From Tubiluchus corallicola (lineage: Eukaryota > Animalia > Priapulida): DNA of 64,000 nucleotides. The stretch is taken from positions 248,001-312,000 of the forward strand of contig JAQGDQ010000178.1 of NCBI GenBank assembly GCA_030141605.1, given 5' to 3'. The stretch's first letter is position 1. The number at the start of each line of letters is the position of its first letter. The notes under the pieces were generated by a model. That model was given only the letters and a program-made list of their open reading frames with translations, did not search any database and was not told where the DNA came from. A program made the translations under genes and the position numbers. Positions 474 through 49,327 of this stretch are shown piece by piece.

Positions 474-3400
474 ATGTGGACCTCTTTGCTGTTACCATTG
501 CTACTAGCCATCTCGTCACTGACAACAACTAGCGGCACCACATTGTCATCAATGTTGTCAGCGTTTCCATCAAGACAAGCATCAGCATACACCTTCAACC
601 AACCACAACAAGAACAGCAACTACAGCGTGAATACAGTTATGCAGTTTCACAACCACTGATTTACGTTGGAGGTAATAAGTGTATAAATATACTGAAGCT
701 TTAAAGCACAAGAAAACTCTCTTCGTAAATAAAGCTCAAAAATTTGTTTTGAAATTTTACATCGCTTAAATGCTGTCTTATTGCACACAGAGCTTGGCTG
801 TATAAAACCTAAAACATTAAACTCCGCGATGACAGCTAGGCGCAGCTATTTTAATGGAAAGTCATTTGAAACATGTTTTACAGTGAGTCAGTGGTGCTCA
901 CTGGGTAGTGAGTCAGTGGTGCTCACTGGGTAGTGAGGCAGTGGTGCTCACTGGATAGCGAGGCAGTGGTGCTCACTGGATAGTGAGGCAGTGGTGCTCA
1001 CTGGATAGCGAGGTAGTGGTGCTCACTGGATAGTGAGGCAGTGGTGCTCACTGGATAGCGAGGCAGTGGTGCTCACTGGATAGCGAGTCAGTGGTGCTCA
1101 CTGGATAGCGAGTCAGTGGCGCTCACTGGATAGTGAGGCAGTGGTGCTCACTGGATAGCGAGGCAGTGGTACTCACTGGATAGTGAGTCAGTGGTGCTCA
1201 CTGGATAGCGAGGCAGTGGTGCTCACTGGATAGTGAGTCAGTGGTACTCACTGGATAGTGAGTCAGTGGTGCTCACTGGATAGTGAGTCAGTGGTGCTCA
1301 CTGGATAGTGAGGCAGAGGCATTTTACCAGGTGAAGCAAACATTTTAAATTATTAAGAATTTTGTTTTCCAATTATATAACTCAATTCAAGCAAATAAAC
1401 GTAGTTTTGAGTAATATAATTATGCTGGAAACGTTTTTTTCGGGATGTATTTGAAAATTATTATTTCTCCTGCCAAATATCATAAGCTAAAATACTCTTA
1501 CCTTCTCTTTAAAGCTTAGTTCATTAATTTGTCATTCAAATCAGAGATGTCACCGCTTTAAAAGGTAAATCATATTATGTTGGGATATGTACATGTGGTT
1601 TTAATCTTAATCAGTGTGTGTCGTTACGTAGGTTAGGCATTGTAGAGCTATCTTCTGGTGGACATGTGTGCTGTGTTTGAAAATGCTAATTTAAGAAAGT
1701 GCCTCAGTAAATGTTAACTTGCAGTGGAACATTTCAATATAAACTAGATGGTTTTCGAACAAAGATTTTGTGACCCTCAATTGATCTCATCTTCAACTCC
1801 TTTTTCAAAATGGACACTACCCATTAGTTCGAACCTGCCTTATAAAAATGCAAATTCAGCAAAATGAATGTAAATTCAGAAATGAAATCTAGCTACACAT
1901 GAGAACCAGCACAAAAGAGCGCTTGCTTCTTTTTTTGACAGCAATAATAACACACGTTCAATGTTCTTTTCTAGATGGCGCAGATGTACGTGGTGAAGAC
2001 ACATACTTCACTACCACATCTTACGGTCCTATTGCATCTGGGAGCTTGCAAGGTCAAGGCTCAAAATCACAGCGGCAGTCTTACACAAGATCAGGGCAAA
2101 GCAAAGGGAAATTGTACAGTACAGATGTAGCAGCAGCAACACAGCTAGCGAAGAAGTCGAAAGCATACGAGTATAAATACAGGTATGAGACACAGTGAAA
2201 CAAAAGGGTGTAAAACGATTGAAGGAAAACTATTTTAAGCAACGAAAGAACTCATAGACTAGCTTGGACGTTGAAAATTACATCAGTTATGGCACTGAAT
2301 CTGTAACGCACACTATCACTGACTGTCATAAAAATATACTTTCAAGGGTGTGTAGTCCAAAAGGAGGTTTGAAACAACAAACAACAAACTCTTCACACTT
2401 CGCCTCTTCTTATTTTGCCTTACCACTTTCAGTTCTCTTATATATATATATATATATACATAAATTATTATTTCTCCAGTATTTTAGCCACAATGAACTC
2501 TTTAAACGCATAACTTTGTTAATACTGTTATTATCTTATTAAAACTAAGTGGTTTTCTTGTTTCAGGAATGGTCACACCTACTATCAGCCAAGACTTCTT
2601 TACTCATATGATGTAGAGCAACCTATATGGGGTTATGCGGATGCAGCCAGTACTCCATATGGTGCCGACACCAAAACTGCACCACAAAGACAAATTGCTG
2701 GTAGCAATACCAGAGGTCTTGCTGAAATATCACCTTTGTTTGGTGATGCTGCAAGCATTATCATCCGAGAAACACATAAAGACAATCAAGTTCAACATAC
2801 TGGACAAAACATAAACTACCTCAGTGAACGTCCAGCACAATATGACGCAAAGTATTTTGGCAAAGGGACATTCCCACAAATGACAAGGATAAATGCTCAA
2901 CAGCTGCCAATTGTTGAAGCAGTTTCATTGCCGCAAACTAGCAGAAGCAATCTTTCATGGGAGAATCAGCCAGTAATTGAGTACGGTAGCATTAACCTTC
3001 GAAATAACAGAAAGAGTGAAACTGCACAGAGAATATTGTCTTTGGCTGATGCCGAGCCACCAGCCAAAATTAATGTACCAAACACAATCCTAACGGTACC
3101 TCAGCAGCAATCTGCTTTACCAATCCTACTTAATAGTGAAGAAAATCAATTGGAGGCATTGGGTCCATCATTAGTCAAGTTTGTTCGACCTGAAATTTTT
3201 GGAACAATGCAACCAAGGCACACATCTCAGTTAGTTACTGTCCGTGGCAACGTGAACGTAAATGTTGGTGTTAGCACAAGCCCACACACAAGCAGATTAT
3301 ATTTACCAGAAAAACAATATGCTGCTAATACTAAAACAGTTGAATATCCACATAGAGACATAAATTCAGTTTTTCCTTTATCTGCTGGAGTTGTAGGAGA

Positions 3401-5498
3401 CAGTAGAATACAGAAGCTTCCACAACTGCCAAAAACCGAATTTAAAAAGCTAATTATCCCTAGCAGTACAATCCAGCCACAAAGGTTTGATAGTAGCAAA
3501 AACAGCCTTGGAGAATTTGCAAAAAGTTTGTTTCATAGCGGCATTGCAAGTAAGGACATAACTGGTGCATTTATCGACATAATTAGTGGAAAAGTGACAG
3601 ATGAAGAAAAGCGGCTCAATATTCAACGTCCAAGCCAAACTACGAATTCTTTGGGATCTTCAAATAGTAGAATAAACAACATTTTTGGTGCAGTGGACGA
3701 AAAGCTATTGGGGTCACCAAGAACTAGAGCTACAGCCCAAACAGTCGAGCCAGAATTTGAAATACAAGACAGAAGGCTAAGAATTTATAGGATTGATGAC
3801 CAAAATACCACCCATATATTCCAAACTATAGAAGATGATTTTCAGCATAGCAACAGAGATGATCTCCAAATAGAAACAGATAAAGCCCTTGAAGATGTAC
3901 TTCTCCAGTTGGAAATAACGGACAGAAATTCAAATCCCAAACAGACAAAAGCAAATGATGATGACGGCTCCAGACAAATAGGAATCCATTTGCCTAATTC
4001 TCCACAGGAAGTGCCAAGATCAACTCCATTTATAAAAATCCGATTTTCATCTGTTCCAGTTCAAGACCAACAAAACGAAAGTACAACAGACACTGAACGA
4101 ATGCAACCATCCAGCAAGGATCCATTAAGACCTACTGGTAACAGACAGGAGCAGCAGCCACAAATTATGCCAAAATCACAAGAAAGAGAATCACTCAGTT
4201 CATTCAGTGAGAAAAGTGTAAGTTCCAATAATTACAATCTTCACAATGGTGAAATTGATGAATCTCAGGAACGAAATGAGGAAGTAATTACAGATCACGA
4301 GAGATCAGTGCCGTACGCAAATAATATAACATACAGACCATCAATTATAGAAAATAGTCAAAATCTACACTTCCCAACCAGCTACATTCAACCATCAGTA
4401 AACAGAAAGCAATTTAGTACAACTTCTGCTATAGCTTCTTCCAATTATAATCCACAGGGTATTCCCAATAACAAAAATTTCTTCAATGTGCAAGTTGATA
4501 TAGGACATGCACAGGATGGCACTGCACAACAGCAAACAACAACTGACACCCAAAGAAACCTGCAGAGTCTAACAAACAATAACTCTGTAAGACGAACGAA
4601 TGGTGGTCTCGGATCATCAAATTCATTTCTTGATCCAAGTAAGTTAACAAATGGTTTTAACACAGAGAAATTGCAGAGAAATATTGCTAACCTAGGCATC
4701 AGCAATACTGAACTCAATAGTCTGGGGTTTAGGAAGAACTTTTTATCTGGTTTGAGAAACAGTGCTCCAAATGCAAGACAAGTTGTAACAACAAATGCAG
4801 AGGTAGACTTTGGCACACCTTTTATTGCAAGTTCAGCAACACCACCAAGTGTAAAAAACATTGAGGACACAAAAAGAGACATTTTTCACACCATTACTGC
4901 ACCTGGCCAAAATGTCGTTGACAGAAATGGACAACTGATTGTTGGAATAGTGAAAAGAGGTTTTGATAATGGAAATCTTAACCCACAAGCATCAACACTT
5001 TTTGGCAACAAGATTCAGTTAAGACAGAATATTCTGAATAGAGAAACGTTGCCAAACTACAATCTCATCGACAGAAGACAAGCTTCTGAGCCAAACACTG
5101 AATTTCTGGAATCAGCCCAGGCTGTTAACTTAGGAAATGGCATTGTTCGAAATTTCTACACTGTGAGAAACCCAATCAGGCAATCTAATCAGATCAGCAT
5201 ACGGGATACGTTTGATTCCTGGCCAAATATCCAACGAGTAGGTAACAGTCAAGGAGGTCACTACTCAAGCAGTCCTGGTCGCACATTAAACAACCCTTTC
5301 ACAGCTTCAGGTATAGGCAGACTGCCAAATGGCATTAGTGGTAGTTCCAATAACAATAGGGCCGGCAATTTTGGCAACACAATAGTAAGCCACGCATTTA
5401 GTGGGCTGCAAAACTCAGGTGGTATTGGTAGAACATTCAGTAGCAAATACCAAAATATTCCAGTAAGAAATCAAAACAGGTATCACGGTTGGTCTTGA
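474..5498 (+). CDS. Secreted protein, family member A (~1112 aa): signal peptide, shared ~86-aa domain, long low-complexity N/Q/S/T/G-rich tail
   Basis: Spliced model join(474..672,1975..2182,2567..5498) keeps frame (3339 nt) with GT/AG sites: G|gtaata 673, ttctag| 1974 (alternative same-phase acceptor at 1941), AG|gtatga 2183, tttcag| 2566. Hydrophobic N-terminus MWTSLLLPLLLAISS. Domain YFTTTSYGP...YEYKYR|NGHTYYQPRLLYSYDVEQPIWG aligns with the two neighbouring genes. Acceptor at 453 implies an upstream UTR exon; AATAAA near 5907. Confidence 0.85.
882..1316. repeat. 25-bp minisatellite, ~17 copies, in an intron of member A
   Basis: Unit agtgag(t/g)cagtggtgctcactggat repeated head-to-tail; internal agtgag/ctcact dyad. 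Confidence 0.95.
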
Positions 5499-7313: not shown

Positions 7314-8064
7314 ATCATTACGTTACGTCATAAATATTCGAAACGTCCATATCAATGAGAGAAAACTTTTTTGCCACCACTTAATGGATGTTAACAAGGT
7401 ATTTTCATAAAAACAGCTTTAAAGTAACAACCTGACCTTTAATGAGCAAGACATTGCAGACTGCAGAGATGACCGCCCCAATCACACCCAAGTGGATTTA
7501 CGATACGATTTTGTAATATATTAAGTGCGTACAGCTTAAAAGACAAGAAAAGGGGTACCTGAAGTAGGTTTCAGAAAAATTGCCTTAAGAAATTATATCA
7601 CTTTACAGCAATTTTATGTGTATATCATACTCGCATTGAAAGGAAGTTTTGTTTGTTTTCATTTTAAATGTTACGTGACGTCACTACGCAAAAGTAAATC
7701 AGACGGAGAAAAGGCAATGTTAAATTATGTCCCAAAAAATCTCCATGCAAATCTATATTACTTAGCATTTCGCTTACCTGTTTGAAAGACTTATGTAACA
7801 AGAAAAGAAAAGTTTTAATTATTTAAAAAAAATTTACCAATTCACCAATGGTAAAATGGCGCTGACTCACCTTTCAGGGTGCACCACCCAGTAACCAAAA
7901 ATGCATTTTTAATCTTATTCACAAGATACAGTAATTTAAAATTTTAGTCGCTTAGTGAAGTGGGCACTACGAATGCTCTGATTAATTTTTCAAACTTTAC
8001 ACAATGTTATCTAAAGTTGTTTCAAATGCCCTGTCGTCGGGAGTTTAAATTTACTACTGTTTTT

Positions 8065-9326: not shown

Positions 9327-11256
9327 ATGAATTCTCACCTGGTAATTCTACTATCTGTCCTTGGTGCAGCGTACAGTACATATGACAGCAGTGGGACAGA
9401 TGGGTACTTAAATGCCCCATCAAACTATGGAACAGCTCAACAGGTGGTAGTGCCTGCACAACAAACTATTTCTGGAAGACAGGTAGACTTGCAAGGTACA
9501 CAAGTAGTTGTGCCTGACAAAGTAGTTGGTGCTGCAAGAACCGTATCACCAGAGTATTTTACTACCACCCGGATAGGGCCAGTAGCCAGTGGAGGATTGA
9601 CGGGATCTGGAACAAGGAGCAGCAGCTTGTCTTACAACAGACAAGGTTCAGCCCAGGGAAGCTTGTATAGTAGGGATCAAGCTGACGCATCTGAAACAGC
9701 ACAGAAAACCAGAGGCTACAGCTACAATTATAGGTGAGACGGTTGTGTAATTTCATAAGGTTCATAATATTTTTTCTACTGCACAATGCATTGGGTTTCT
9801 CGAATCCTAAACAGGGTAAAGCCACATTATGACAGAGTGCCGTAAGTATTGGTTTTGCAGCTGTATACTGAAATGTAAGTTAAGTCGTCAAACTTAAAAG
9901 CAAACAATCAAAGAAAGCAACTTCAAAGAACACAGAGTTATTGAAATTCACACTTGCACAGTCACTGTCACTGTGCTTGCATCGTTTGTTTGCTTCAAGT
10001 GTTTTCATAACTGTAGGTCAAAACAATCCACTCTTTAAAATTTTGAAACGAAATATACTATTTTTAAAAAAATGACTTATGTGAAAGAATTATTGACACA
10101 CAAATACAATTTCACGTTCGCGGGACTAGTTTTTCGCTGTTACTTTCATTCGCCATTTGCTAGTTGACGGGCACTAGCGAATGCATTTCGGAAACCCACT
10201 GCACAAAAACATGTGCTGTACCTCTCAGTTCAGGTGTGTTAGTTTCTGACGAACTACACACGTTCGACAGCTAATGCGTGAGCACAGCGGTAAATTTGAA
10301 ATTTCAATTTTTATCTTAAAACTTACCCAGTTTTAGTACAACACACTCAGTATCCTACAGTAGCACGTAACTTCAATTTTCTCTTTCACAAACACGTGCA
10401 ACACGCTCGTGCAGTACTTTTGCTGTTGAAAATTATGTTAGTGTGTCATCAATAGTTAGGCATGCCCGCCATTAATTAAGATTTCAATCTATAATTTAAT
10501 TATCAGAAACGCTTTTGCAGTATTAATTGTGTTAAAACGAATACTTTTCATCGGACTTGAAAATGGGGTGGTAGTATATGAAAAATCATCCTGTTTTCCT
10601 TTAATGGAGCGTTTTCTTGCAGAGAAGGCCATCAGTATGCACAGCCGAGGACACTCTACAACTACGACCTCCAGGAGCCAGTCTGGGGAGTAGCAACCAA
10701 AGCCGAGGTTTATAGAGGAGATGGTGGGGATGCTGGCCTCACAGTTGACAATTTGGGCAGCAGCAGGAGCACTATTGGCGGCGGTTTGGGAATTGGAGGA
10801 GGTTTTGGCCGTGTCTCAGCTTTGAGTGGAACATTACGTACAGGAACCTCTAGTGCCTTGACTACTGGAAAAGGACTGTCTCTCGGTAGCAAAATCGGTA
10901 CTGGAATAGATCAGCTGAGAAGTGGAACAACCGGACTTCACACTGGAACAGTTCGCGTAACTGGAAGAACAGGCAGCGCTGGATACGGTAGCGGCATCCG
11001 TGCAGGAAACACGGCAGGTGGATACGGTAGCGGTATCCGTGCAGGAAACACGGCAGGTTATGGAGCAAATGTTGGCAGATACAGAGGCACTCCTGGAATC
11101 AACGGTCCCTATCAGATATGGGCTTACCGAGACGCTGTTCAATCGCAATTTGGAAAAGGTAGCAAGCCATGTTCTTTCTACATCGGTGGCCCATGCAGTG
11201 GAATGGAATTAATAGCAGGTGGTTACGGTGTCCGGCGCATACCAGTGATATGGTGA
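9327..11256 (+). CDS. Secreted Gly-rich protein, family member B (346 aa)
   Basis: join(9327..9733,10623..11256)=1041 nt; AG|gtgaga donor 9734, ttgcag acceptor 10622. Signal peptide MNSHLVILLSVLGAAYS; shared domain EYFTTTRIGP...YNYR|EGHQYAQPRTLYNYDLQEPVWG; Gly-rich tail with 2x GYGSGIRAGNTAG. Probable non-coding exon ending 9113 (|gtaagt) spliced to 9322. Confidence 0.9.
10193..10604. mobile_element. Dispersed repeat copy 2, inside the domain-splitting intron of member B; ends in ...ttttcctttaa (TTAA end, Kolobok/piggyBac-like by inference)
   Basis: Matches 1-388; terminal gaaaaatca..ttttcctttaa also at 55205-55228. The element may extend left to ~9894 (ttaaaagcaaaca). Confidence 0.7.
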
Positions 11257-15917: not shown

Positions 15918-17521
15918 TTAATAGGCACGACCATAACCGCCACCACTGCCACCACCTACGATGGCAGCACCTCCAGTACGGAAACCAGCAGTTCCAGAAC
16001 CAGATGCAGCGCCCTCACCTCTGTAGACAGACGGGTTGTCAGCCAGACCCCAGATATCTTCAGTGATGTCATAGGAATACAAGAACTTGGGCTGCTCATA
16101 GTTGTGTCCTTCCCTGCACATTTACACAAACGATGTTTTAAATGTCAGCAAAGAGTTAGAAAAGTTAAAGCAAGATTCATTCTTACATTAAAAACGAATC
16201 AAACTAATGAAAAATCATCATGCAACAGCTAATGAATCCAATAAATTAGGAAAATCTACTAAATAATGATAAAACAGACAATTACAAGTAAGTGGTAACC
16301 AGATGTAAAATTTTAAGAATACTTAACATTTGCTTTTCCCTGTTCTAATAAATAAGTTAAGAAATAAAATAACAAAAATAATTATATCTACACTAACCAT
16401 GAAATAAATATGACCTTAGTGATTTGTAAAAGGTGAGAATTCTGACCTTAGCATTGCATTTCAGTTCAAAAGAATCCCAAGAGCAAACTTGGGAATTGTT
16501 TGGTTTTGATACATTCATGTTCGATTTCCCGGTGACTAACATAACCCAAATTCAAAATAAGAGAGCACAATGATACAACAGCACTGGTAAAATTTTGTTT
16601 TAGCACATTTCTAATCTCTAAGCTTCTTAAAAGTCAACTTAGTCATAAATTAGTGAAAAAAAACAGAAAATATTTTACATAAACATGCCACATTTTGCCT
16701 TACTTAATGTTGGATTTGGAAAGCTTCTAATATTTGACAACACACAAAAAATGCCTATTAATTCAATGACAGTGTAAGTCCCCTGCAGAAAAATTGTATA
16801 ATATTATGTAAAATGTAAGTTTCTGTAAGTTGTATTTGTTTCAAAATTGATATAACGAGACTCCAAGGAGTTCTGAAATGAAATTATTCTATTGTACATA
16901 CTCTAATAATAAAAAAATTTATAAAACCGCGTTGCAGAAATACACACAGGTCAGAAAATAACAGTGAAATGTACAGTTGTTTGAAATTCTTATCATTATT
17001 GCTGAGAAACCTTACTGGCTAAAGCCAGGTAACCTAAAAGTATAAAGTGTTAATCAAATTGTAAATTATGTAAAGAAAACCAGCAATGAATGCTGCACGT
17101 CTTACCTGTACTGATATTCATAGGAACGAGTTTTCTTGGCATTCTCGGTTGCTGATGCCTGGTCTCTAGAGAAAAGACTTCCACTTGCATCTCCCTGTCG
17201 AGTGTAAGAAAGGCTGCTTTCCCGGGACCCAGAACCCCTCAAGCCCCCGGTGATTTCTGGTCCAAAACGAGTGGTAGTGAAATACTCTGGTGCTTCTGTA
17301 GCTCTGACCACTGTCTGACCACCAGAACTACCTCCAGTTACCACCTGTCCTCCCAGCTGGCCAAGGTTGTGCACACGGGCCACTGTCTGACCACCAGAAC
17401 TACCTCCAGTTACCACCTGTCCTCCCAGCTGGCCAAGGTTGTGCACACGGGCCACACGGTTTCCATAACCAGTGGCATAAGCACCAGCTATGACAGCAAA
17501 AAGAAGAGCAAGGACCTTCAT
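15918..17521 (-). CDS. Secreted Gly-rich protein, family member C (203 aa)
   Basis: complement(join(15918..16113,17106..17521))=612 nt; AG|gtaag donor, tgtgcag acceptor. Signal peptide MKVLALLFAVIAGAYA; 72-bp tandem duplication (VARVHNLGQLGGQVVTGGSSGGQT x2); shared domain EYFTTTRFGP...YQYR|EGHNYEQPKFLYSYDITEDIWG; ends GGGSGGGYGRAY. UTR intron ~17530-17984. Confidence 0.9.
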
Positions 17522-37319: not shown

Positions 37320-38230
37320 GTATGGATTGTAAATCATCCATCATTAAGTCTGGATTGTAAATCATCAATAAGTATTGATTGTAAATCAGCGATAAGTATG
37401 GATTGTAAATCATCAATAAGTATGAATTGTAAGTCATCAATAAATCTGGGTTGTAAATCATCAAGAAATATGGATTGTAAATCATCAAGAAATATGGATT
37501 GTAAATCATCCATAAATAAGTCTGGATTGTAAAACATCAATAAGTATGGATTGTAAATCATCAATAAGTATGGATTGTAAATAATCGATAAGTCTGGATT
37601 GTAAATCATCAATAAGTCTCTGTTGTAAATCATCAAAAGTATGGATTGTAAATCATCAATAAATCTGGATTGTAAATCATCCATCAATAAGTCTGGATTG
37701 TAAATCATCAATAAGTATTGATTGTAAGTCATCAATAAGTATGGATTGTCATCATTAAATCTGGATTGAAAATCATCAATAAATCTGGATTGTAAATCAT
37801 CAATATGTCTGGATTGTAAACATGAAATAAGTTTGGATTATAAATCATCAATATGTCTGGATTGTAAATCATCAATAAATCTGGATTGTAAATCATCCAT
37901 CAATATGTATGGATTGTAAATCTTCAATAAGTCTGGATAGTAAATCATCAAAAAGTCTGGATTGTAAATCATCAACAAGTGTGGATTGTAAATCATCCAT
38001 CAATAAGTTTGGGTTGTAAATCCTCCATAAGTATGAATTGTAAATCATCAATAAATATGGATTGTAAGTCATCAATATGTCTGGATTGTAAAACATCAAT
38101 AAATCTGGATTGATTGTAAATCATCAATAAGTATCGAATTGTAAATCACCAAAAGTCTGGATTATAAATCATCAATAAATCTGGATTGTAAATCATCAAT
38201 AAGTCTGGATTGAAAATCATCAGTAAGTCT
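37320..38230. repeat. ~24-bp minisatellite (tggattgtaaatcatcaataag(tc/ta)), >35 copies
   Basis: Direct reading; lies just upstream of the duplicated cadherin unit. Confidence 0.95.
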
Positions 38231-38926
38231 CATAATTTTTTTAATTTATAATTTTGAAGGCACGTTTTCTGATACCTACTTCAAGGATATTGGCTCACCT
38301 TTTTATCTTACATCATTCTCTATTCTTTTTTGCCAATCAATTCAAAAACTAGGTTTCACCTGAATGCAGATCTACATAACATGAACTATGATCTATGAAA
38401 GGCGGAATTATTTTCAGTGTTTGTGTGTCTGCTCGCTTGTTTGATATGTGTTCGGTTTGTTCATTTGCAGTACTGCACTCGATTCTGTTAAAAAAACTTG
38501 TCAGTGCAGTTCATAATTCTTTTTAATATGTAATCCTACATTCTTAAGGGTCAGTTGCTGTGATTAAATTATGACATCTGAAAAAAGACAATGGATAAAA
38601 ATGTTAAACAATGTCACAGTATTGTTAATTATATACAGCATTATAGTTCTGTATCTATACAGTAGGTCTGGAAATCATTTTCACAGCATTGTGTGAAGTC
38701 AAAGAATGTGAAAAAAACAATGATCAGGAATGGAATGTCTACCTGGCTAGCTTAAATAAAGCGCAAATTTGGAGGACAATTAGAAAAGTGGGAAAAGAAG
38801 GATATCACAAGACGGTGCAGAATTGATCACTTGAGCTATTCTTGTATTACTGTCGTAGCACTCAGTGGAATGTTGATTTGACATACTTTGCATTACTCAA
38901 AGCGGTATTCTTTATTTAAGACAAAA

Positions 38927-40861
38927 ATGCATTTCATCGTGCATGATCATGTTTGCCGTACTTTCACTGGCAAAGCTGTGGCCAGTATTTTGCACAATAT
39001 TGTACTTACCATGATAGTTTTTCTTGGTTTTGTAGTCCTGGCTTCTTCAAGAATAGATACAACTCGGTGCAATGACGTAATGAAATCGCAGTATTATTTA
39101 ACTGTTAAGGACAATCGTGAGCCTATGAAAGATGTTACTAAGTTCTACGGTAAAAAAGATGGTATTACTTTCTACTTTATAAGATTCGAATTAGTGGAAG
39201 ACCCAGCACGACTGATTGGTTTGGGAAGCTCAGAGAATGACAGATACACATACGCATTCAATTTAGTTATTATAAGGTCTGTAAAAGACTATCTCAGAGA
39301 ACAAGATGACCAACCCTTAAGCTGGACGGCGATAGTCAAATGCTCTTCAGAGCTACACCAGGAGGAATTGAACATAAAAATTAAAGTTACTATAGAATCA
39401 GCGAATGAACACCCACCAAGAGCAGCACCGGGAACGCAAGATAGGTATCCTGTCTCAGAAAAAGCTAAGATTGGAACAATGTTAGCAAGTTTTGTGGTGC
39501 TAGATGACGATGAGAATGCTCCCTACAATTCTTTTTCAACGTGTTCCATCAAGGGCAATAATTCCAAATTTGAAGCAAAAGCAAGACCCAGTACCAACAA
39601 TTGTGAGATTTTCTTGCGCAAGAAATTAGATTATGAGCAGCAGTCGCTGTATAAGGTCGAAGTTACGATGCTTGATGCAGGTGTTATTCCAAAAGAAGGC
39701 ACACATGTATTCACTTTCGATGTAGCAGATGTCCATTTCAATCCTGTATTTGATGCAGAAATGTATTACGCCACTATAAAAGACAATGACCCAGTAGGGA
39801 CGATAATAAATGTCCAGCCAAACAGAATTTCTGCTGTCGACGGTGAATCGGGCAAAAGTGATGAACACATAAGATACAGCCTGGTAATTGGAGGTAAACC
39901 TTTTCAGTTTGTCAATGCACATAATAAAGAAACGCCAGAGGAACGTGTAGGGGACATAAAAATAATAGGAATGATTCGAGAACTCGAGTATTTCATGCCA
40001 CTCAAAGCCACTTACGTGAAGGATGGCGAACCCGAGTACTACACTGCAATGACAGGCATACACATTACAGTGCAAATTCAAGGACCACCCCCTAGATTTA
40101 CTCAAAATTTGTACAAAGCTACAGTTGTGGAAAATCTTCCTGAAGGACGGAGGGTATTGGTTGTCCAAGCCAAAGATTTATCCCGGACAAACATCCCGGA
40201 GTTTTCTTATAGTCTGAAGACAAAGACTGGCGAATCAGTAAGTGAGTTTACAGTGGACGGCTATAATGGTATAATAACAGTTACGAGAAAACTGACTCCA
40301 GGAGTCCATGTTTTTGTTGCAGTGGCTGCAAATGCTGATGGGTCGAGGGAGGCTGACGTTGAGGTGACCGTTTTGGCAGAAATTAATGAGAATCCAAAGT
40401 TCTCAAAGGACTTTTATGATTTCAAATTTGCGAAAAACGTTTTGGTCGATGATGGCGTTAATGCAGTAAGTGCAACACCTGCAGACGTTGTTAAGTTTAG
40501 AATGCTTACTATGCACGAGTACTTTGTCATTGAGTCTCCTCAGCAGGGAATCGGCATCATTACAGGCACGGATATGATGATAGAAACTTTGCCGTTGGGA
40601 AAGTACAGTTTAGTTGTCCTTGCCTGCATAGATGGAAATGTAGCAATTGGTGAAGATGAGTTGTGCAGTGCAGTTGAAGTAGAGGCCACTGTAGTAAAAG
40701 AGATCGATAATTGGATAGAGGCACTGCGTGATGATTCAACGACTAGCTACAGCATGAACGAAGTTCTCATACTCGTAGCTTTTGATTTGGTTTTGTTTGG
40801 CATCGTATGCGTCCTAACCTACATGATTATTATGCAGCAGCGATACAAAATGGGAACCTGA
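38927..40861 (+). CDS. Intronless cadherin-repeat single-pass membrane protein, copy 1 (644 aa, ~5 EC-like domains, very short cytoplasmic tail)
   Basis: ATG 38927 (aligned to the paralog start); N-terminal hydrophobic segment; cadherin motifs NEHPP, VSEKAKIGT, LDDD, LDYE, DAG, NPVF, ENLPEG, EINENPKF; C-terminal TM VLILVAFDLVLFGIVCVLTYMII then MQQRYKMGT*. Confidence 0.9.
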   Translation: MHFIVHDHVCRTFTGKAVASILHNIVLTMIVFLGFVVLASSRIDTTRCNDVMKSQYYLTVKDNREPMKDVTKFYGKKDGITFYFIRFELVEDPARLIGLGSSENDRYTYAFNLVIIRSVKDYLREQDDQPLSWTAIVKCSSELHQEELNIKIKVTIESANEHPPRAAPGTQDRYPVSEKAKIGTMLASFVVLDDDENAPYNSFSTCSIKGNNSKFEAKARPSTNNCEIFLRKKLDYEQQSLYKVEVTMLDAGVIPKEGTHVFTFDVADVHFNPVFDAEMYYATIKDNDPVGTIINVQPNRISAVDGESGKSDEHIRYSLVIGGKPFQFVNAHNKETPEERVGDIKIIGMIRELEYFMPLKATYVKDGEPEYYTAMTGIHITVQIQGPPPRFTQNLYKATVVENLPEGRRVLVVQAKDLSRTNIPEFSYSLKTKTGESVSEFTVDGYNGIITVTRKLTPGVHVFVAVAANADGSREADVEVTVLAEINENPKFSKDFYDFKFAKNVLVDDGVNAVSATPADVVKFRMLTMHEYFVIESPQQGIGIITGTDMMIETLPLGKYSLVVLACIDGNVAIGEDELCSAVEVEATVVKEIDNWIEALRDDSTTSYSMNEVLILVAFDLVLFGIVCVLTYMIIMQQRYKMGT

Positions 40862-41093
40862 CTCTAATAGCCTATTGTTTGCTGCCAACTTCAATAATTG
40901 TCACCTTTGAATGTTATAATAATTTTTTACACACAATTTCCTGTCTGTTTCTTTTTTAAAAGAACGTTTTAATTTTTTCTTGCTCATTTTTCTATTTGTT
41001 TTCTTTTTTAAAGGAATGTTATACTTTTTTCATGCATGCTTTTCTGTCAGTTATCTTTTTTTAAAGGAATGTTATAATTTTTCTGCACAGTTT

Positions 41094-43686
41094 TTACTCT
41101 TTTGCTTCTTCAAACATTTTTGGAATTTTCGCCTTAATCTTTTGTTTTAATTCTTCTGCATCTGCCATAATCTTTTTTGGAAACACAAATTTGGAAGTCC
41201 GCCTTGATACATTCTCGTCAGCCGCTTTTTCTGTGACCTTTCCTTCTTTTGCATCTACTATTTTTTTATTTATGTCTACTACAATGACGTGCGAATTTTG
41301 CTGTCTCTTAGGTGAAAGAGTGGCAGCACCATCTGCTTGTTTTACCTTAGCTTCATAAATCGGAATTACTTGTGTTGTTGTCATGGTCGTAAGACTCGGC
41401 ATGTTTTTAGCTCTCTTTTTCTTCTGATGATTTTTTCCTGCATAATGTGATACTGCGTGTACTTTACTAGTAAATGTTACTTGACACAAGGCACAGTAGC
41501 TTATATCTTCTTCTTCGTTTTCTTTGCATCTCTTGCTGCTGATGCTTAACCTGTTCGTGAAACTTTCCTCTTGATCGACTAGATGACCTCTCGGGGTGTC
41601 CTCGCACGCCATCTTTCTGTCGCTTGTAGTTTTTCCCAAAGCGTTAAGATTCACTGTTAATTGATCTGGGGTAAAACTGTGATTCCGAGCTTTCATAAAC
41701 TCTCCTATTTCCTTCAGATGCTTTTTAGCAGCTTTGTGTTGCTTACCGTAGTAATGTTGTATCGTATTCGTTTCACCCGACATCGTTACTCTGCACAAAG
41801 AGCAATGATTTTTTACTTGTTCTAAGACATCGCATGCAGACTCTTTGTGATGATTAATCACAACTTCGTTTGTTAAAAATCGACTTGAAAAAGTGCTTGT
41901 ACTTCCCGTTTCAGACTCGGCATTACGTGTTACCAAATTTATCACCTTATTAGAAAATAAAAAATAATTCTACACTAAGTATTTCAAGTGTTGAAGTGAC
42001 AGTGTTGTATCTTAAAAAATTAAATCAATGTCTAGTTAGTATTGTCATCTGGTGACACTGTGTGAAAAGCATAATCTGCATACATAATTATATAATAATA
42101 AATATTTGGCAATTAAATTTAATAGAGTCTAAGACCGAAAAATGTGAGCAAAAAGTTATTTTCGGACGTTTTTGCAAGTTCTTTTTGTCAACGTAAGCAG
42201 TTGTATGCAGGTATTCGTTCCGGTCCATGCGTGCGTGGAAGCAGGTAGAAGATGCGGTGGCCACTGCTTTGTTTTTTAGGAGACGCCAGGTCTTTAAAGT
42301 GTCACTTTCCGGGAGAAACCACGCGAAATTTCACGAAACTGGTGCTACTAAAAGAACCAATGAAAAAGTTTTTGGAGCCATTTTGAAAAGAATAAGTACA
42401 TTTGTACGGTGGTAAAGAAAAACAATCTACAATATGCAGAAAGTTTTGTACACAAAATTCCAGTAAACTGCAGTGTGATGTGATTTCCCACAAAAAAGTG
42501 AAACGGTGGTTCTATTATTTCCACTAAGCAAGCATATGAGATTCTTGCGCATTATTAATCACTGATGAGCAGTTCTAATAGCATTCGTCAAATCGTCATG
42601 CTATTCTGAAAGTTTCAAAATAATACCGATGCAGTTCAGAATGCTCTTGTGAAGTTTTCCTAGCTTTTGTTCAAATTAAGAAGCTACTATAAAGGGTTAT
42701 CTCTTCAGTCAGCTATAATTATTTTTTATTTCTCAGGCCAATAAAACCAGTTTTTGGCCTGAGTTAGGACCAGTACAGTGACAGAACACTGACGATCAAT
42801 TCTGAAATAAGATTAATTCTGAAATTGATCAAACAAGATAAATACTGAAAAAATTTGAGTTGGCTTGACTGAAAGAAGTCAATTCTTGTCTAATTTATCA
42901 TTTATTTTCTACACAAAAAGAGTACACGAAGAACACATCACGCAAAATCGAACAATACAAAAACCCTGGCAAATAATGTTACTCCACTTAATCCTGCAAA
43001 ACACTTATTGATAATGAGTTGAAATGAGAAGCAGTTATGGAAAAATCGGTCAGCTTGGTCAACTTACTGGCATCAGTGGTGGGGATGCTAACGCTAGCTT
43101 TTTCCGATGTTTATCGCTCACTATGTGTTGTTGATAGGGAGTTGGTCCACTGAATGACTTACAGCAATAGTTGCAAGAGAAACTTTCCATCTCGTGGTGT
43201 TTTTCTAGACAATTCTGAAAAAGATCAATTTAGTTCATTCTTCGTGTCCTGTTTGTGCCGCAACGACATTTTCTTCATGCGTGACTGTCTACTTAGTGAC
43301 AAGCGTGTTCATCCCTTTCATTAAGCCCAAATTCAGGGAAATGATTAGAATGCTTTTCTATTTTTTTTTATTCGTTTTTAATTATTCAATTTTAATTAAT
43401 TAATAAGTTTTTAGTTATTCGAGGCCTTAAAACACAAGAAGAATCTCCACTGACATGAAGCTTAAAAAAATTCGTCTTGAAATTTTATACCACTTACCTT
43501 AGCTTCATAAATCGGAATGACTTGTGTCGTTGCAATGGTCGTAAGACTTAGCATGTTTTTAGAATTCTTTTTCTTGTGATGGTTTTTTCCTGCATAATGT
43601 GATACTGCGTGTACTTTACTAGTAAACGTTTCTTGACACAAGGCACAGTAGCTTATATCTTCTTCTTCGTTTTCTTTGTTACTTAG
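41094..43686 (-). CDS. Matrin/U1-type C2H2 zinc-finger protein (ZNF385/ZNF346/ZMAT-like), 5'-incomplete, at least 3 exons and 4 fingers
   Basis: Phase-0 exons 43498..43686 (YCALCQETFTSKVHAVSHYAGKNH, AAG|gtaagt), 43068..43214 (tttttcag|, CNYCCKSFSGPTPYQQHIVSDKH, CCA|gtaagt) and 41094..41945 (HCSLC..HYYGKQH; YCALC..HYAGKNH). All fingers are C-x2-C-x12-H-x5-H. Start exon not located. Confidence 0.75.
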
Positions 43687-44441
43687 CTAAAGTAGCTTGC
43701 ACCCAGCATTTCTCACCAATGATAGCGAAATGTGTCCCCTCACCATTTAGGGACCGTTTTTAACTTCAGATTTGCAACTCAGTAAATTTATTCGACTTAC
43801 CTAATGGCTTACACTCGGACTTCTTTCTTTTTAATATATTACACAGTACACATGTAGAAATTTAAATTTTTACTAAAATTTAATGGCGGCACAAGTTTAC
43901 AAGATAAGACGAAAGTCGAAGGAGTTAGTGAGTCATGAACAGTACGAGTGGACTTTGTAACTTGAGGTAATATTCGTTCGAATCGAATCTACGCGCAACC
44001 ACAATGCATATAATGGCGCAATCGACCACCAAAAATAAAGGTAACGTGATGTCAATTTTAGGCAGGCTGCCTGAACTTCTAGTCATTTTCGTACGCGTAG
44101 CGTTAGCACCCTAGCATTATGCAAGACATCCGAGAGACCACTGAGCACAACTTCGTTTCTAAAGTGAACCGAGCAGTTACTGAAAACAAAACTGAAATAC
44201 TTCCACAAAATTTGTTGAAAAAAGTTGCATTTGTCTTTTACGTGTAGACAAAATTTGTGAATGACCGTTTGTTGTTTTTACGGCTCCTTAGGGGGTGTTG
44301 ACTTGTTGCTCCCTAGGGCTGCGCTCGATTTATAGATATGTATTAATTTGGTATAAACCTATTGCTGGTGAATTGGAAATGGACGTTATACTGACCAATG
44401 TACATTTATTGCCCGGATCAACATCTCCCATGGGCCCTGAT

Positions 44442-44447
44442 NNNNNN
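44442..44447. other. Assembly gap (6 N)
   Basis: nnnnnn in the sequence, 6 bp before the start of the second cadherin duplication unit. Confidence 1.
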
Positions 44448-45134
44448 GGCAAGTATAATTTTGAAGGCAAGTTTTCTGATACCTACTTCAAGGATATTGG
44501 CTCACCTTTTTATCTTACATCATTCTCTATTCTTTTTTGCCAATCAATTCAAAAACTAGGTTTCACCTGAATGCAGATCTACATAACATGAACTATGATC
44601 TATGAAAGGCGGAATTATTTTCAGTGTTTGTGTGTCTGCTCGCTTGTTTGATATGTGTTCGGTTTGTTCATTTGCAGTACTGCACTCGATTCTGTTAAAA
44701 AAACTTGTCAGTGCAGTTCATAATTCTTTTTAATATGTAATCCTACATTCTTAAGGGTCAGTTGCTGTGATTAAATTATGACATCTGAAAAAAGACAATG
44801 GATAAAAATGTTAAACAATGTCACAGTATTGTTAATTATATACAGCATTATAGTTCTATATCTATACAGTAGGTCTGGAAATCATTTTCACAGCATTGTG
44901 TGAAGTCAAAGAATGTGAAAAAAAAACAATGAGCAGGAATGGAATGTCTACCTCGCTAGCTTAAATAAAGCGCAAATTTGGAGGACAATTAGAAAAGTGG
45001 GAAAAGAAGGATATCACAAGACGGTGCAGAATTGATCACTTGAGCTATTCTTGTATTACTGTCGTAGCACTCAGTGGAATGTTGATTTGACATACTTTGC
45101 ATTACTCAAAGCAGAGTTCTTTATTTAAGACAAA

Positions 45135-47069
45135 ATGCATTTCATCGTGCGTGATCATGTTTGCCGTACTTTCACTGGCAAAGCTGTGGCCAGTATTTTG
45201 CACAATATTGTACTTATCACGATAGTTTTTCTTGGTTTTGTAGTCCTGGCTTCTTCAACAATAGATACAAGTCGGTGCAATCAGGTAATGAAAGCGCAGT
45301 ATTATTGGACTGTTAATGACAATAGTGTGCCTAACAGTGGTTTTACTATATTCTATGGTAAAAAAGATGGTATTACTTACGAACTTTTAAGATTCGGATT
45401 AAAGTCAGACTCAGGACAACTGTTTGGTTTGGGAAACTCAACGAATAACAAATACGCATTCAGTTTACGAACCACAAGGTCTATACCAGACTATCTCAGC
45501 ACTCAAGATGATCCACCCATCTTAAACTGGGTAATAAAAATAGAATGCAAATCAGTCTCCCATCCACAGGAAAAATTTGACATAAATGTGAATGTTTCTA
45601 TAAAATCACTGAATGAACACCCACCAAGAGCAGCACCGGGAACGCAAGATAGATATCTTGTCTCCGAAAAAGCTGAGATTGGAAGAATGTTAGCAAGTTT
45701 TAGGGTGCTAGATGATGATCTGAATGCTCCCTACAATTCTTTTTCAACGTGTAACATCAAGGGCAATAATTCCAAATTTGAAGCAAAAGCAAGACAGGGT
45801 ACCCACAATTGTGAAATTTTCTTGCAAGAGGAACTAGATTATGAGCAGCAGTCGCTGTATTATGTTACTATTACGATGCATGATGCAGGCATTATTCCAA
45901 ATGAAGGCACACATGTATTCACTTTCGATGTAGCAGATGTCCATTTAAATCCTGTATTTGATGCAGAAATGTATTACGCCACTATAAAAGACAATGACCC
46001 AGTAGGGACGATAATAAATGTCCAGCCAAACAGAATTTCTGCCATCGACGGTGAATCGGGCAAAAGTGATGAACACATAAGATACAGCCTGGTAATTGGA
46101 GGTAAACCTTTTCAGTTTGTCAACGCAGACAATAAAGAAACGCCAGAGGAACGTGTAGGTGACTTAAGAATAATTGGAAAGATAACAGAACTCGAGTATT
46201 TCATGCCAGTCAAAGCCACTTACGTGAAGGATGGCGAACCCGAGTACTACACTGCAATGACAGGCATACACATTACAGTGCAAATTCAAGGACCACCCCC
46301 TGGATTTACTCAAAATTTGTACAAAGCTACAGTTGTGGAAAATCTTCCTGTAGGACGGAGCGTATTGGTTGTCCAAGCCGAAGATTTATCCCGGACAAAT
46401 ATCCCAGAGTTTTCTTATAGTCTGAAGACGAAGACTGGCAAATCAGTAAATGAGTTTACTGTGGACGGCTATAATGGTATAATAACAGTTACGAAAAAAC
46501 TGACTCCAGGAGTACATGTTTTTGTTGCAGTGGCCGCAAATGCTGATGGGTCAAGGGAGGCTGACGTTAGGGTGACCGTTTTGGCAGAAATTAATGAGAA
46601 TCCAAAGTTCTCAAAGGACTTTTATTATGCCAAATTTGCGAAAAACCTTTGGGCTGATGATGGCGTTAATACAGTAAGCGCAACACCTGCAGACGTTGTT
46701 AAGTTTAGAATGCTTACTATGTACGAGTACTTTGTCATTAAGTCTCCTCAGCAGGGAATCGGCATCATTACAGGCACGGATATGATGATAAAAACTCTGC
46801 CGTTGGGAAAGTACAGGTTAGTTGTCCTTGCCTGCATAGATGGAAATGTAGCAATTGGTGAAGATGAGTTGTGCAGTGCAGTTGAAGTAGAGGCCACCGT
46901 AGTAAAAGAGGTCGATGATTGGATAGAGGCACAGCGTGATGATTCAACGACTAGCTACAGCATGAACGAAGTTCTCATACTCGTGGCTTTTGCTTTGGTT
47001 TTGTTTGGCATCGTATCCGTCCTAATCTACATGATTATTATGCAGCAGCGATACAAAATGGGAACCTGA
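45135..47069 (+). CDS. Intronless cadherin-repeat single-pass membrane protein, copy 2 (644 aa)
   Basis: Collinear paralog or allele of 38927..40861 with the same motifs; AATAAA at 47374. Confidence 0.9.
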   Translation: MHFIVRDHVCRTFTGKAVASILHNIVLITIVFLGFVVLASSTIDTSRCNQVMKAQYYWTVNDNSVPNSGFTIFYGKKDGITYELLRFGLKSDSGQLFGLGNSTNNKYAFSLRTTRSIPDYLSTQDDPPILNWVIKIECKSVSHPQEKFDINVNVSIKSLNEHPPRAAPGTQDRYLVSEKAEIGRMLASFRVLDDDLNAPYNSFSTCNIKGNNSKFEAKARQGTHNCEIFLQEELDYEQQSLYYVTITMHDAGIIPNEGTHVFTFDVADVHLNPVFDAEMYYATIKDNDPVGTIINVQPNRISAIDGESGKSDEHIRYSLVIGGKPFQFVNADNKETPEERVGDLRIIGKITELEYFMPVKATYVKDGEPEYYTAMTGIHITVQIQGPPPGFTQNLYKATVVENLPVGRSVLVVQAEDLSRTNIPEFSYSLKTKTGKSVNEFTVDGYNGIITVTKKLTPGVHVFVAVAANADGSREADVRVTVLAEINENPKFSKDFYYAKFAKNLWADDGVNTVSATPADVVKFRMLTMYEYFVIKSPQQGIGIITGTDMMIKTLPLGKYRLVVLACIDGNVAIGEDELCSAVEVEATVVKEVDDWIEAQRDDSTTSYSMNEVLILVAFALVLFGIVSVLIYMIIMQQRYKMGT

Positions 47070-49327
47070 CTCTAGTATTCTATTGTTGGCCGCCAACTTC
47101 AATAATTGTTACCTTTGAATGTTATAATAATTTGTTACACACAATTTCCTGTCTGTTACTTTTTTAAGAGAAAGTTTTAATTTTTTCTTGCACATTTGGC
47201 TATTTGTTTTCTTCTTTTAAAGGAATGTTATAATTTTTTTATGCATGCTTTTCTGTCAGTTATCTTTTTTTAAAGGGATGTTATAATTTTTCTGCACAGT
47301 TTTTAGTCTTGTATCTTTTTTTAAAAAATGTTATTTTGCACTTTAAACTTGTACTGTACTTGTACTGATACCCAATAAAATTCCATAGAAGTATTTTTTA
47401 TGGAAGTGTGCAATTTTTGACAAAGTTCCAGGTAGTCAGACTATGAACGAAATATAAGATAACAATTTAAAGAAATTAAAGATAACAATACGTATCACAA
47501 ACTATCGATTATCATATCAATACTAAAAAAATTTTTATCGTTGTCGTATCTATATTTGTTTAGAATATCCTCATCACTTTGAATTCAGTACGAATCGCTT
47601 TCTTTTATAAGAGTTTTTCTTTGCTTGTCAGCACCACTTCTGTTTCAATATCATCATCATATGCCCAACACATCTATTGTAGACATTGGGCAGGCAGAAT
47701 TCTAAAATAAAAGAAATCTGCCCTAGACAGGTAAACGCAGCAGTAATCCAGCAAGAAACTAGACACTGTTACACCAGTGGCTTGTCAGCACCACTTCCGA
47801 TTAAGGACCACTGCCGATTCGGTTTCAATGAAGACTCAGTCATTGTTGCTATTGACAATAGCATCAGTCTTCAGTCAGTTTAATAACGTGCGTGGATGAC
47901 AAGTGCCCTATTTTAAAGGCATTTTCCCAGTTATGCACTGACATAAATAAACTCACATGAATGGAAATGCTTTAACTTCGCAAAACTCAAATCCAGCCGG
48001 ACAGGAAAAAACTTTTGAGTTAGGCAATGTTGACCATTTCGCAGCATGAAACATCTAAACTCTCCTCTAGATGGCAAGATAAATAGAAGATGGAAAATCA
48101 ACCCTTCTGTACACAATCGAGAAGATTTGATGACAGTTGCATAAATAGTAACAAATTATGTAGTGAAAAACGATTTTTGATCTTACAAAAGGACAAGTAC
48201 ACAACACTGTTAAACAATACGACAGTGTGGCTACCAAAGTCTTGCAGTGTGTATGTAGTTCAATTATTCAATCAGCCGGAAGACGATACTGTTTTTGAGT
48301 TGTAGTAAACTTTATTTTTCTAGAGTATAAATTGCATTTTTGAGTACGGCAATGTAAATTACATGTATTTTGATTAAATAGACCATATTTTTTATTCAAG
48401 TCATATATTTTGAGTCTGACGATGTTTTTTGTAGGAAAAATGAAAGATTTCTTCTGTTCTGCTGAAATTCTTTGAGTTAGGAGAAAGAATGGGATATGCG
48501 ATTTTGAGTTATACTGAGTTTACTGTAGTCTTGAAATATTGAATAACATACTTTTAAAAGTCTTTGACGACATATTAGAAGGCTAAAAAATAGATAAGAT
48601 AAATAGAAGGCAGAAAATCAACCCTTCTATACAAAAATGACGAAATTTGATGACAATTACATAAATAATAACAAATTGTGAAGTGAAGCACGAGTTTTTA
48701 ATGTCCAAAAGGGCACTTGCTGTTGTTGTCATTGTTACTGCCATGTAGCAGCAAATCAGCTAGTTTACGTACAACTGGAAAGAAAAACACAACAAAGATG
48801 TCAAAAATGTCACAAGGTCATCAACTAAAGGTCACAAATTTTGCGTGGTCGAGGTCATCAACTGAACAACATCAAATGTACCAGGTAAAGGTTGCCAGCT
48901 AAAGGTTGTGAAATTTTACTAGCTCAGCATTGCGAACTAAAGGTCACGAAATTTTACGAGGTCAAAGTCATTAACTAATTTTCACAAAATTTTATCGGTC
49001 ATTTGCGAGGTCAAGGTCGTTAACTAAAGGTTATTCATTGATTTATTTTCATGTATTTCAGGAATGGATATGAAAACTCCGCTATCCTTCAACTTCTTTC
49101 AAGTCTTTCGTACGGCGTTTACAATCGAGAAGACGCATGTGTCCAGCTGAGTGCTGTTGACATGCACTCTCTTGTGATCAGGCATTCCTTATTTCTGTAT
49201 GTAATGCAAGACGTGTCAGAAGAAATAAAATCAGATGTTAAAAGTGATGTGCCCATATATATTTTCCTTGTTTGTCTCTTCTCTCTTTTCTCTTTCTTTT
49301 TCATTCTTTTCTGTTAGCGAAAATATA

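What the first reader, a model, noticed from the sequence alone, without database searches (positions are those of the whole stretch)
38247..47380. Twin intronless cadherin genes with a hypervariable first domain: candidate self/non-self recognition locus
Seen: two 644-aa ORFs whose ~680-bp upstream non-coding DNA differs at only about ten positions, yet protein identity (hand count) is ~50% in EC1 (61/~120, with three in-frame indels that cancel in length), ~83% in EC2 and ~93% in EC3-EC4. The distal coding DNA is far more diverged than adjacent non-coding DNA while both frames stay intact. Known: membrane-distal EC domains set cadherin/protocadherin binding specificity, and allorecognition receptors such as Hydractinia Alr1/Alr2 vary most in their distal domain. 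Inference: diversifying/balancing selection or domain-restricted gene conversion generating recognition specificities (allorecognition, gamete recognition, neuronal identity or pathogen evasion) in a non-classical, nearly tail-less cadherin family.
Basis: partly seen in the sequence, partly recalled or inferred. Interest (0 to 1): 0.88.

Follow-up and report, generated by a model that had tools for sequence, protein, structure and literature searches.

The report
Variable-tipped cadherin-like gene family
Two neighbouring genes of an unidentified animal encode cadherin-like membrane proteins with nearly the same stalk but very different outer tips; read data show at least six tip versions in one sample, so this is likely a family of gene copies whose tips were probably pushed apart by selection to bind different partners, and not shown to be a self/non-self locus.

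Summary
Two intact 644-aa ORFs are 55% identical in the distal domain (D1), 83% in EC2 and 93% in EC3-4, with 1% divergence upstream.
Three corrections. (1) The 1% baseline misleads: synonymous sites (dS 0.07-0.10) and the 3' flank (7%) show older copies with a recently homogenised 5' flank. (2) D1 omega is about 1.8: nominally significant by counting, not by maximum likelihood (p 0.10-0.12); its first two thirds give omega about 3 (post hoc), its last third dS 0.48. (3) These are not twins: one sample holds at least six D1 versions, and about five recur in a second study. That fits stable paralogs better than hypervariable alleles.
A 6-N gap lies at copy B's left edge, so an allelic or misassembled pair is not excluded. 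EC2-4 are true cadherin repeats; D1 could not be shown to be one. No relative above about 30% identity was found. Best reading: a lineage-specific, almost tail-less receptor family with a shared stalk and variable tips, analogous to clustered protocadherins. Binding partner, expression and organism are unknown.

The parts
38927..40861 (+). Copy A CDS, 644 aa: signal peptide (about aa 1-41), variable D1, EC2-EC4, domain 5, hydrophobic anchor, 8-aa tail
   Evidence: PF00028 E 1e-17; hydropathy
39050..39421 (+). A distal domain D1 (aa 42-165): variable tip; Cys48 and Cys139; DYLRE and NEHPP motifs; probably a degenerate cadherin repeat, not shown
39422..40402 (+). A EC2-EC4: true cadherin repeats, calcium motifs partly lost after EC2
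   Evidence: (59, 12 and 33 bits; 0 of 200 shuffles each reached these)
40403..40720 (+). A domain 5 (aa 493-598), beta-rich, Cys567/Cys580; no profile match to cadherin repeats
40763..40861 (+). A hydrophobic anchor (aa 613-636, with Asp620; Ala in B) and an 8-residue tail
45135..47069 (+). Copy B CDS, 644 aa, same layout
45258..45629 (+). B distal domain D1; 86 substitutions and 12 gap bases against A over 378 columns
38247..38926 (+). A upstream homology, 99% identical to B's; likely recent conversion or crossover tract
44454..45134 (+). B upstream homology; its first ~37 bp (like A's) belong to a dispersed repeat also found at 7560-7597
44442..44447 (.). Run of 6 N at B's left edge; no listed contig bridges it
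40862..41101 (+). A 3' flank, 7% diverged from B's; homology ends where an antisense zinc-finger ORF begins; no AATAAA until 41956
47070..47379 (+). B 3' flank with AATAAA at 47374
37323..38230 (.). 24-bp satellite (37 copies) abutting A's upstream homology

Best explanation
A and B are likely two paralogs of a multi-copy family of almost tail-less cadherin-like membrane proteins that share a conserved stalk (EC2-EC4, domain 5) and carry strongly diverged tip domains, which were probably diversified by selection so that each copy would bind a different partner. Shown: the domain layout, the divergence gradient, purifying selection on EC3-4, at least six D1 versions in one sample, and a patchwork of divergence along the unit (1% in the 5' flank, dS 0.10 in D1 aa 42-120, 0.48 in aa 121-165, 0.07-0.09 in the stalk, 7% in the 3' flank). 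Inferred: gene conversion or unequal crossover recently copied about 0.8 kb of 5' flank and signal peptide between A and B and shuffles pieces of D1 among copies; selection favours new tip surfaces. With an 8-residue tail the protein would act as an adhesive or specificity subunit on the cell surface, not as a signalling receptor on its own. I favour a paralog-encoded code for cell-cell or gamete contact, as in clustered protocadherins or sDscam; the partner is unknown.
For: Divergence gradient and omega: (D1 omega 1.7-2.3 by counting, Fisher p 0.05-0.003 depending on kappa; aa 42-120 ML omega 3.1-3.2, p 0.02-0.03; EC3-4 omega 0.36-0.38; 21 codons with 2 or more changes in D1). Both frames and both D1 cysteines are kept through three indels. 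Family: in run X2, five contigs other than B overlap B 45567-45636 with 20-43 differences each, at depths 165-197, like the exact A (232) and B (175) contigs and the unique DNA between them (178-213). Four of the five differ from B in ways A does not. Variant letters listed for family copies: D1 22 replacement / 4 silent vs EC3-end 17 / 13, p 0.04. About five D1 types recur in run X3 of another study: records 24~16, 23~15, 21~12, 20~4 and the A-like record 17. A and B have unrelated DNA beyond 240 bp downstream, and the DNA between them is also present in X3 (2 differences in 1693 bp). Precedent for specificity domains escaping homogenisation in a cadherin cluster: PMC4978886 (passages).
Against: The ML test of omega > 1 over all of D1 is not significant (p 0.10-0.12); the significant sub-window was chosen after seeing the data; the last third has omega 0.8. 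Without letters equal to the other window copy the family tally is 11/3 vs 11/10, p 0.16, and it uses only the 64 coding rows shown, out of 848 and 194 rows in the two tables. The N gap sits at B's left edge and no listed contig bridges it; the depth unit (one or two chromosomes) is not calibrated, and the tool warns that summed depth is no copy number. How X3 is related to the source sample is unknown; if it is close kin, shared types say little. D1 has no sequence or fold assignment. Domain 5 and EC2 also have omega near 1, which fits general relaxation.
Confidence: 0.45

Rival explanations
1. Relaxed constraint plus patchy gene conversion: an older duplicated family whose distal domain drifts almost neutrally, while recent conversion makes the flank look young. 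No new binding specificities.
For: Whole-gene omega 1.04-1.09; D1 ML test p 0.10-0.12; dS 0.48 in D1 aa 121-165; omega near 1 in EC2 and domain 5. Run X3 shows a 509-bp deletion removing a start codon and much of D1, and X1 holds a diverged copy with 10 gaps, so some copies decay.
Against: In aa 42-120 dN is 0.31 against dS 0.10; frames and cysteines are intact after three indels; EC3-4 are under purifying selection; replacement excess among other copies' letters (weak).
Confidence: 0.2
2. Escape from, or decoy against, a microbe or toxin: the tip is an exposed surface domain, like the fast-evolving tips of the microvillar cadherins CDHR5 and PCDH24, and changes to avoid or soak up a foreign ligand, not to encode self.
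For: High dN among young copies (dS below 0.1) is typical of arms races (own knowledge). The tail is too short to signal. D1 has a cysteine near its start and one late in the domain, as the strand A-F disulfide of CDHR5/PCDH15 EC1; PCDH24 and CDHR5 tips are poorly conserved across species (PMC8691648, passages). Weak in-register hit to PCDH15 8e51_C, E 0.003.
Against: No ligand or tissue evidence; the PCDH15 hit ranks 40th of 54 and was not recovered with shorter queries; that paper's main text has no occurrence of 'positive selection'.
Confidence: 0.2
3. A and B are deeply diverged alleles (or haplotype-specific copies) of an allorecognition or gamete-compatibility locus, placed in tandem by the assembler; balancing selection keeps many D1 alleles.
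For: B's homology starts at the N gap; 1% upstream divergence is allele-like; contigs of the upstream DNA shared by A and B have twice the depth of each D1 (350-374 vs 175-232); the flank contigs of X1 and X2 end 7 letters past 44441. The A-like contig of X3 has 7/375 differences vs 2/1693 in flanks. Alr1/Alr2 also sit in a 41-gene family (10.1101/2022.03.04.482883, abstract), so a family does not exclude this.
Against: Six or more versions in one sample need at least three loci if it is one diploid; about five types recur in a second study, whereas Alr2 has 137 distinct domain-1 protein sequences (PMC8282982, passages); divergence stays at 7% for 1.7 kb on the 3' side but falls to 1% on the 5' side; the 3' neighbourhoods are unrelated; no signalling tail.
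Confidence: 0.15

Closest known systems
Clustered protocadherins, especially the single-exon beta cluster (PMC4978886, passages) and coleoid cephalopod PCDH arrays (PMC9068888, passages)
   Same: Tandem paralogs with the ectodomain, TM and short tail in one exon; gene conversion homogenises some parts while specificity domains stay diverged.
   Different: Five domains, not six; variation peaks in the most distal domain, whereas in cPcdhs EC2-EC3 vary and EC1 is more conserved; only 21-30% identity to protocadherins; degenerate calcium motifs; 8-aa tail; copies much younger (dS about 0.1 vs 0.28-2.84 in the two table rows seen).
Hydractinia Alr1/Alr2 and the 41-gene Alr family (PMC8282982 passages; 10.1101/2022.03.04.482883 abstract)
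   Same: Type I surface proteins most variable in the distal domain, in a family with pseudogenes and conversion.
   Different: Ig folds, one exon per domain, ITAM/ITIM tails in several members, over 100 allelic domain-1 sequences; here cadherin repeats, one coding exon, no tail, and D1 types that recur between two studies.
CDHR5 / PCDH24 / PCDH15 tip-link-type cadherins (PMC8691648, passages)
   Same: Short ectodomain (CDHR5 has EC1-4), tip with a cysteine pair, poorly conserved tips.
   Different: Described there as single genes compared across species, not as young tandem families; their long tails are recalled, not checked; homology of D1 to their EC1 is not shown (one hit, E 0.003).
Chelicerate sDscam/mDscam expansions (PMC5775551, abstract)
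   Same: Lineage-specific burst of shortened adhesion receptors by duplication.
   Different: Ig superfamily; sDscams use alternative promoters and 5' cassettes.

Membership tests
Cadherin superfamily | At least two consecutive extracellular cadherin repeats | tested here: met
   PF00028 E 1e-17, 2 stretches; EC2, EC3 and EC4 beat all shuffles against a 4380-domain profile; all listed Foldseek rows for the ectodomain model are cadherin-repeat structures
Cadherin superfamily | The distal variable domain is itself a cadherin repeat (EC1) | tested here: inconclusive
   No Pfam cadherin or PDB hit; 1-2 bits against the EC profile, reached by 14-18 of 200 shuffles; hhalign places the last 31 columns in register at probability 2.7%, score 15.0 vs best 14.5 of 25 shuffles; AF2 pLDDT below 50. 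Length, position and the DYLRE/NEHPP motifs suggest it.
Cadherin superfamily | Canonical calcium-binding motifs at each linker | tested here: not met
   LDYE and DDD-type motifs only in EC2; no DxNDNxP-type linker in either copy; the EC3-4 linker has no acidic residue (sequence)
Classical cadherins | Catenin-binding cytoplasmic domain | tested here: not met
   The ORF ends 8 residues after the anchor; no Cadherin_C hit. A spliced tail exon was not tested by RNA.
Clustered protocadherins | Six EC repeats with a protocadherin-type EC1 (PF08266) | tested here: not met
   Five domains; no Cadherin_2 hit at E up to 10 for D1; identity to protocadherins 21-30%
Clustered protocadherins | Tandem paralog array with domain-restricted conversion and divergence | tested here: inconclusive
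   Multi-copy and mosaic shown; physical clustering beyond A and B, and across the N gap, not shown
Clustered protocadherins | Isoform-specific homophilic binding and neuronal expression | not testable with these tools
   Needs assays and RNA
Alr-type allorecognition locus | Extreme allelic polymorphism at single loci | tested here: inconclusive
   About five D1 types shared by two studies argue against; 7/375 differences in the A-like contig argue for some polymorphism; kinship of the samples unknown
Alr-type allorecognition locus | Genotype predicts fusion or rejection | not testable with these tools
   Organism not identified; needs crosses
Alr-type allorecognition locus | Ig-superfamily ectodomain | tested here: not met
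   EC2-4 are cadherin repeats; D1 fold unresolved
PCDH15/CDHR5-type cadherins | EC1 with a strand A-F disulfide | tested here: inconclusive
   Cys48 and Cys139/138 kept in both copies; the bond and the fold are not modelled with confidence

The most novel reading that the evidence does not exclude
This is the core of a cadherin-based self/non-self (allorecognition or gamete-compatibility) complex in an invertebrate: a cluster of tail-less cadherin-like genes whose tip domains are both paralog-diverse and allele-diverse, reshuffled by gene conversion, a cadherin counterpart of the Ig-based Hydractinia Alr complex.
Probability: 0.12. Interest if true: 0.85.

Novelty: new variant of a known kind. 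Interest (0 to 1): 0.52.

Why it matters
Animals have repeatedly built recognition codes from arrays of adhesion receptors with variable ends (protocadherins, Dscam, Alr). This looks like another independent case, built from a degenerate five-domain, tail-less cadherin with no close relative in the databases searched, and caught while the copies are young (dS about 0.1). A and B differ mostly in about 55 tip residues, so one domain-swap assay could test whether the tip sets binding specificity. If the tips also vary between individuals and predict compatibility, it would be a cadherin-based allorecognition system, which five listing-level searches did not show in print.

Tried and rejected
No whole genome is held for this window, so copies could not be counted in an assembly. 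Homolog searches: the full-length A search gave 60 hits at 21-30% identity, with only the 7999 best candidates scored; the D1 alignment gave 0 of 37 candidates; the representatives search gave 3418 hits, the 150 listed all 1655 aa or longer at 25-30% identity; none of 6 window proteins is in the collection exactly. The Atlas placed A among chordate cadherin clusters without naming a family; it gave no answer for D1 or for a neighbouring protein. D1 folding failed twice (pLDDT below 50; 37), and fold searches with that model are uninformative (no E <= 0.001, best Z 4.6). The homodimer prediction of D1-EC2 gave no verdict. Expression: no RNA holder listed. Exact B letters are absent at several D1 positions in X3, but also in X1 of the same sample as X2, so this absence was not used. 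I first read the loose ends at 44454 as the upstream DNA of other copies; searches show they belong to a dispersed repeat, so that was dropped. A small excess of depth just left of the gap may be a contig crossing it; it is not listed, so it was not counted. The organism could not be placed: a neighbouring secreted-protein family has one unnamed homolog. Earlier-findings look-ups gave nothing on this locus. A GPI anchor instead of a TM helix was considered (short tail, small residues upstream, Asp620 in A) and is not excluded.
Full report
What is there. The window is AT-rich animal-type DNA (29-41% GC in 2-kb bins; 'animal' is inferred from the cadherin repeats and gene content). Two ORFs of 644 aa lie on the + strand, A 38927-40861 and B 45135-47069, inside a duplicated block 38247-41101 / 44454-47310 of 92.5% identity. 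Each has a hydrophobic N-terminus (likely signal peptide, about aa 1-41), five domains of about 105-125 aa, a hydrophobic segment at aa 613-636 and an 8-residue tail. No whole genome is held.

The observation.

Is it a cadherin? EC2-EC4 are. Pfam PF00028 hits at E 1e-17, a profile from 4380 cadherin repeats scores EC2, EC3 and EC4 of both copies above all 200 shuffles, and the ectodomain model matches cadherin structures. D1 and domain 5 do not match that profile, and D1 could not be folded. D1 has the size and place of a repeat, a DYLRE/DYLST motif, an NEHPP linker and two conserved cysteines placed like the EC1 disulfide of CDHR5/PCDH15 (PMC8691648, passages; one weak in-register hit to PCDH15, E 0.003). 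I treat it as a probably degenerate repeat. Calcium motifs are partly kept around EC2 and lost further in. No relative above about 30% identity was listed, so the family looks lineage-specific, within the limits of those searches.

The baseline. The 1% upstream divergence is not the age of the copies. The proximal CDS has dS 0.07-0.08, significantly above the upstream value (p 2e-6), and the 3' flank differs at 17 of 240 sites. A 387-bp identical run upstream would not occur at 7% divergence (6e-13). So about 0.8 kb of 5' flank and signal peptide was homogenised recently (conversion or unequal crossover, inferred), or A and B are alleles whose coding parts come from different copies. Inside D1, dS is 0.10 for aa 42-120 and 0.48 for aa 121-165, which suggests pieces of different age.

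Selection. For D1, counting gives dN 0.34-0.36, dS 0.16-0.20, omega 1.7-2.3 (Fisher p 0.05, 0.01 and 0.003 for kappa 1, 2 and 3). A pairwise codon ML model gives omega 1.8 with p 0.10-0.12 against omega = 1; aa 42-120 give 3.1-3.2 (p 0.02-0.03, window chosen post hoc); aa 121-165 give 0.8; EC2 0.9; EC3-4 0.36-0.38 (p 0.011-0.014). Variant letters of other copies, from the rows shown (40 of 848 and 40 of 194 rows; 64 coding rows used), are 22 replacement / 4 silent in D1 and 17 / 13 in EC3-end (p 0.04); without letters equal to the other window copy, 11/3 and 11/10 (p 0.16). Positive selection on the tip is suggested, not proven; strong purifying selection there is excluded.

Not twins but a family. 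Four runs from two studies hold the locus. In the deep run X2, the unique DNA between A and B lies in contigs without a substitution at depth 178-213, the exact A and B D1 contigs are at 232 and 175, and five further contigs overlap B 45567-45636 with 20-43 differences each at depth 165-197. Four of them differ from B in ways A does not. The fifth has the same count as A (20) over the aligned part but overlaps the exact A contig by more than a word length, so it is probably another type (inference). That makes at least six, probably seven, D1 versions in one sample, hence at least three loci if the sample is one diploid. I rely on distinct overlapping contigs, since the tool warns that summed depth is no copy number. 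Run X3, of another study, holds counterparts of about five types (records 24~16, 23~15, 21~12, 20~4; A-like record 17), with one private letter among the rows shown and a private 509-bp deletion that removes a start codon. Its A-like contig differs from A at 7 of 375 sites against 2 of 1693 in flanks (p 1.6e-4), which may be real polymorphism, another paralog or a chimeric contig. The kinship of the two samples is unknown.

Alleles or paralogs? For paralogs: unrelated 3' neighbourhoods, asymmetric divergence, the spacer present almost unchanged in the second study, recurring D1 types. For alleles or a misjoin: the gap at B's exact edge beside a dispersed repeat, allele-like 1% upstream, no listed bridging contig, and an uncalibrated depth unit. 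I put paralogs at about 70%.

How it likely works. A shared, partly calcium-free stalk would hold a variable tip off the membrane; copies arise by duplication, exchange flanks and pieces by conversion, and some decay. New tip surfaces are probably favoured. With no signalling tail, the protein would be an adhesive or specificity subunit (a GPI anchor is not excluded). I favour a paralog code for cell or gamete contact (0.45) over drift with conversion (0.2), escape from a microbe or toxin (0.2) and an allelic allorecognition locus (0.15). Binding, expression and tissue are untested.

Comparison with what is known. It works like clustered protocadherins, where EC2-3 escape conversion and set specificity and the beta cluster is single-exon (PMC4978886, passages), like cephalopod arrays made by whole-gene duplication (PMC9068888, passages), and like Alr2, whose domain 1 is most polymorphic with 137 known protein sequences (PMC8282982, passages; Alr family of 41 genes, 10.1101/2022.03.04.482883, abstract; sDscam, PMC5775551, abstract). 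It fails membership of the classical cadherins (no catenin tail), the clustered protocadherins (five domains, no PF08266 EC1) and Alr (cadherin, not Ig). Searches (listings and abstract starts only) showed no paper on such a family; the library lacks most subscription papers, supplements were not read, and with the organism unknown the search could not be keyed by name.

Verdict. A real, undescribed-looking, lineage-specific family of variable-tipped cadherin-like proteins: a new variant of a known kind. Interest 0.52. The allorecognition reading stays open at about 0.12 and would deserve 0.85.

Noticed in passing
window 1893-2198 (+), 9327-9737 (+), 17102-17521 (-): Three small, probably secreted paralogs sharing a ~60-aa C-terminal domain that starts with YFTTT and ends in a Y-x-Y-x-Y-R motif; no Pfam family above cut-off for the three; one unnamed homolog, P0211, 54% identity.
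   Followed up: partly
window 2523-5498 (+) and 10582-11256 (+): A long low-complexity ORF and a Gly-rich ORF share a 32-aa N-terminal motif (59% identity), each preceded by homologous DNA (1-386 ~ 10193-10579); possibly structural or cuticle proteins with a spliced first exon. No Pfam hit.
   Followed up: partly
window 41094-41783 (-), fragment at 43494-43678: A 229-aa ORF with a zf-met C2H2 finger (E 5e-9) replaces A's distal 3' flank on the opposite strand; a 93% identical 185-bp piece of it lies 2.1 kb away beside a very high-copy repeat.
   Followed up: partly
window 37323-38230: 24-bp satellite, 37 copies, directly upstream of A's homology block.
   Followed up: no
run X3 laid on window 44978-45488: A contig joins across a 509-bp deletion that removes a start codon and the first part of D1: a likely broken family member seen only in that run.
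   Followed up: no
run X1 laid on window 40245-40925: A 1042-letter contig with 116 differences and 10 gaps: a more distant or decayed family member.
   Followed up: no
window 40785 (A aa 620): A has an aspartate in the middle of its hydrophobic anchor where B and several other copies have alanine.
   Followed up: no
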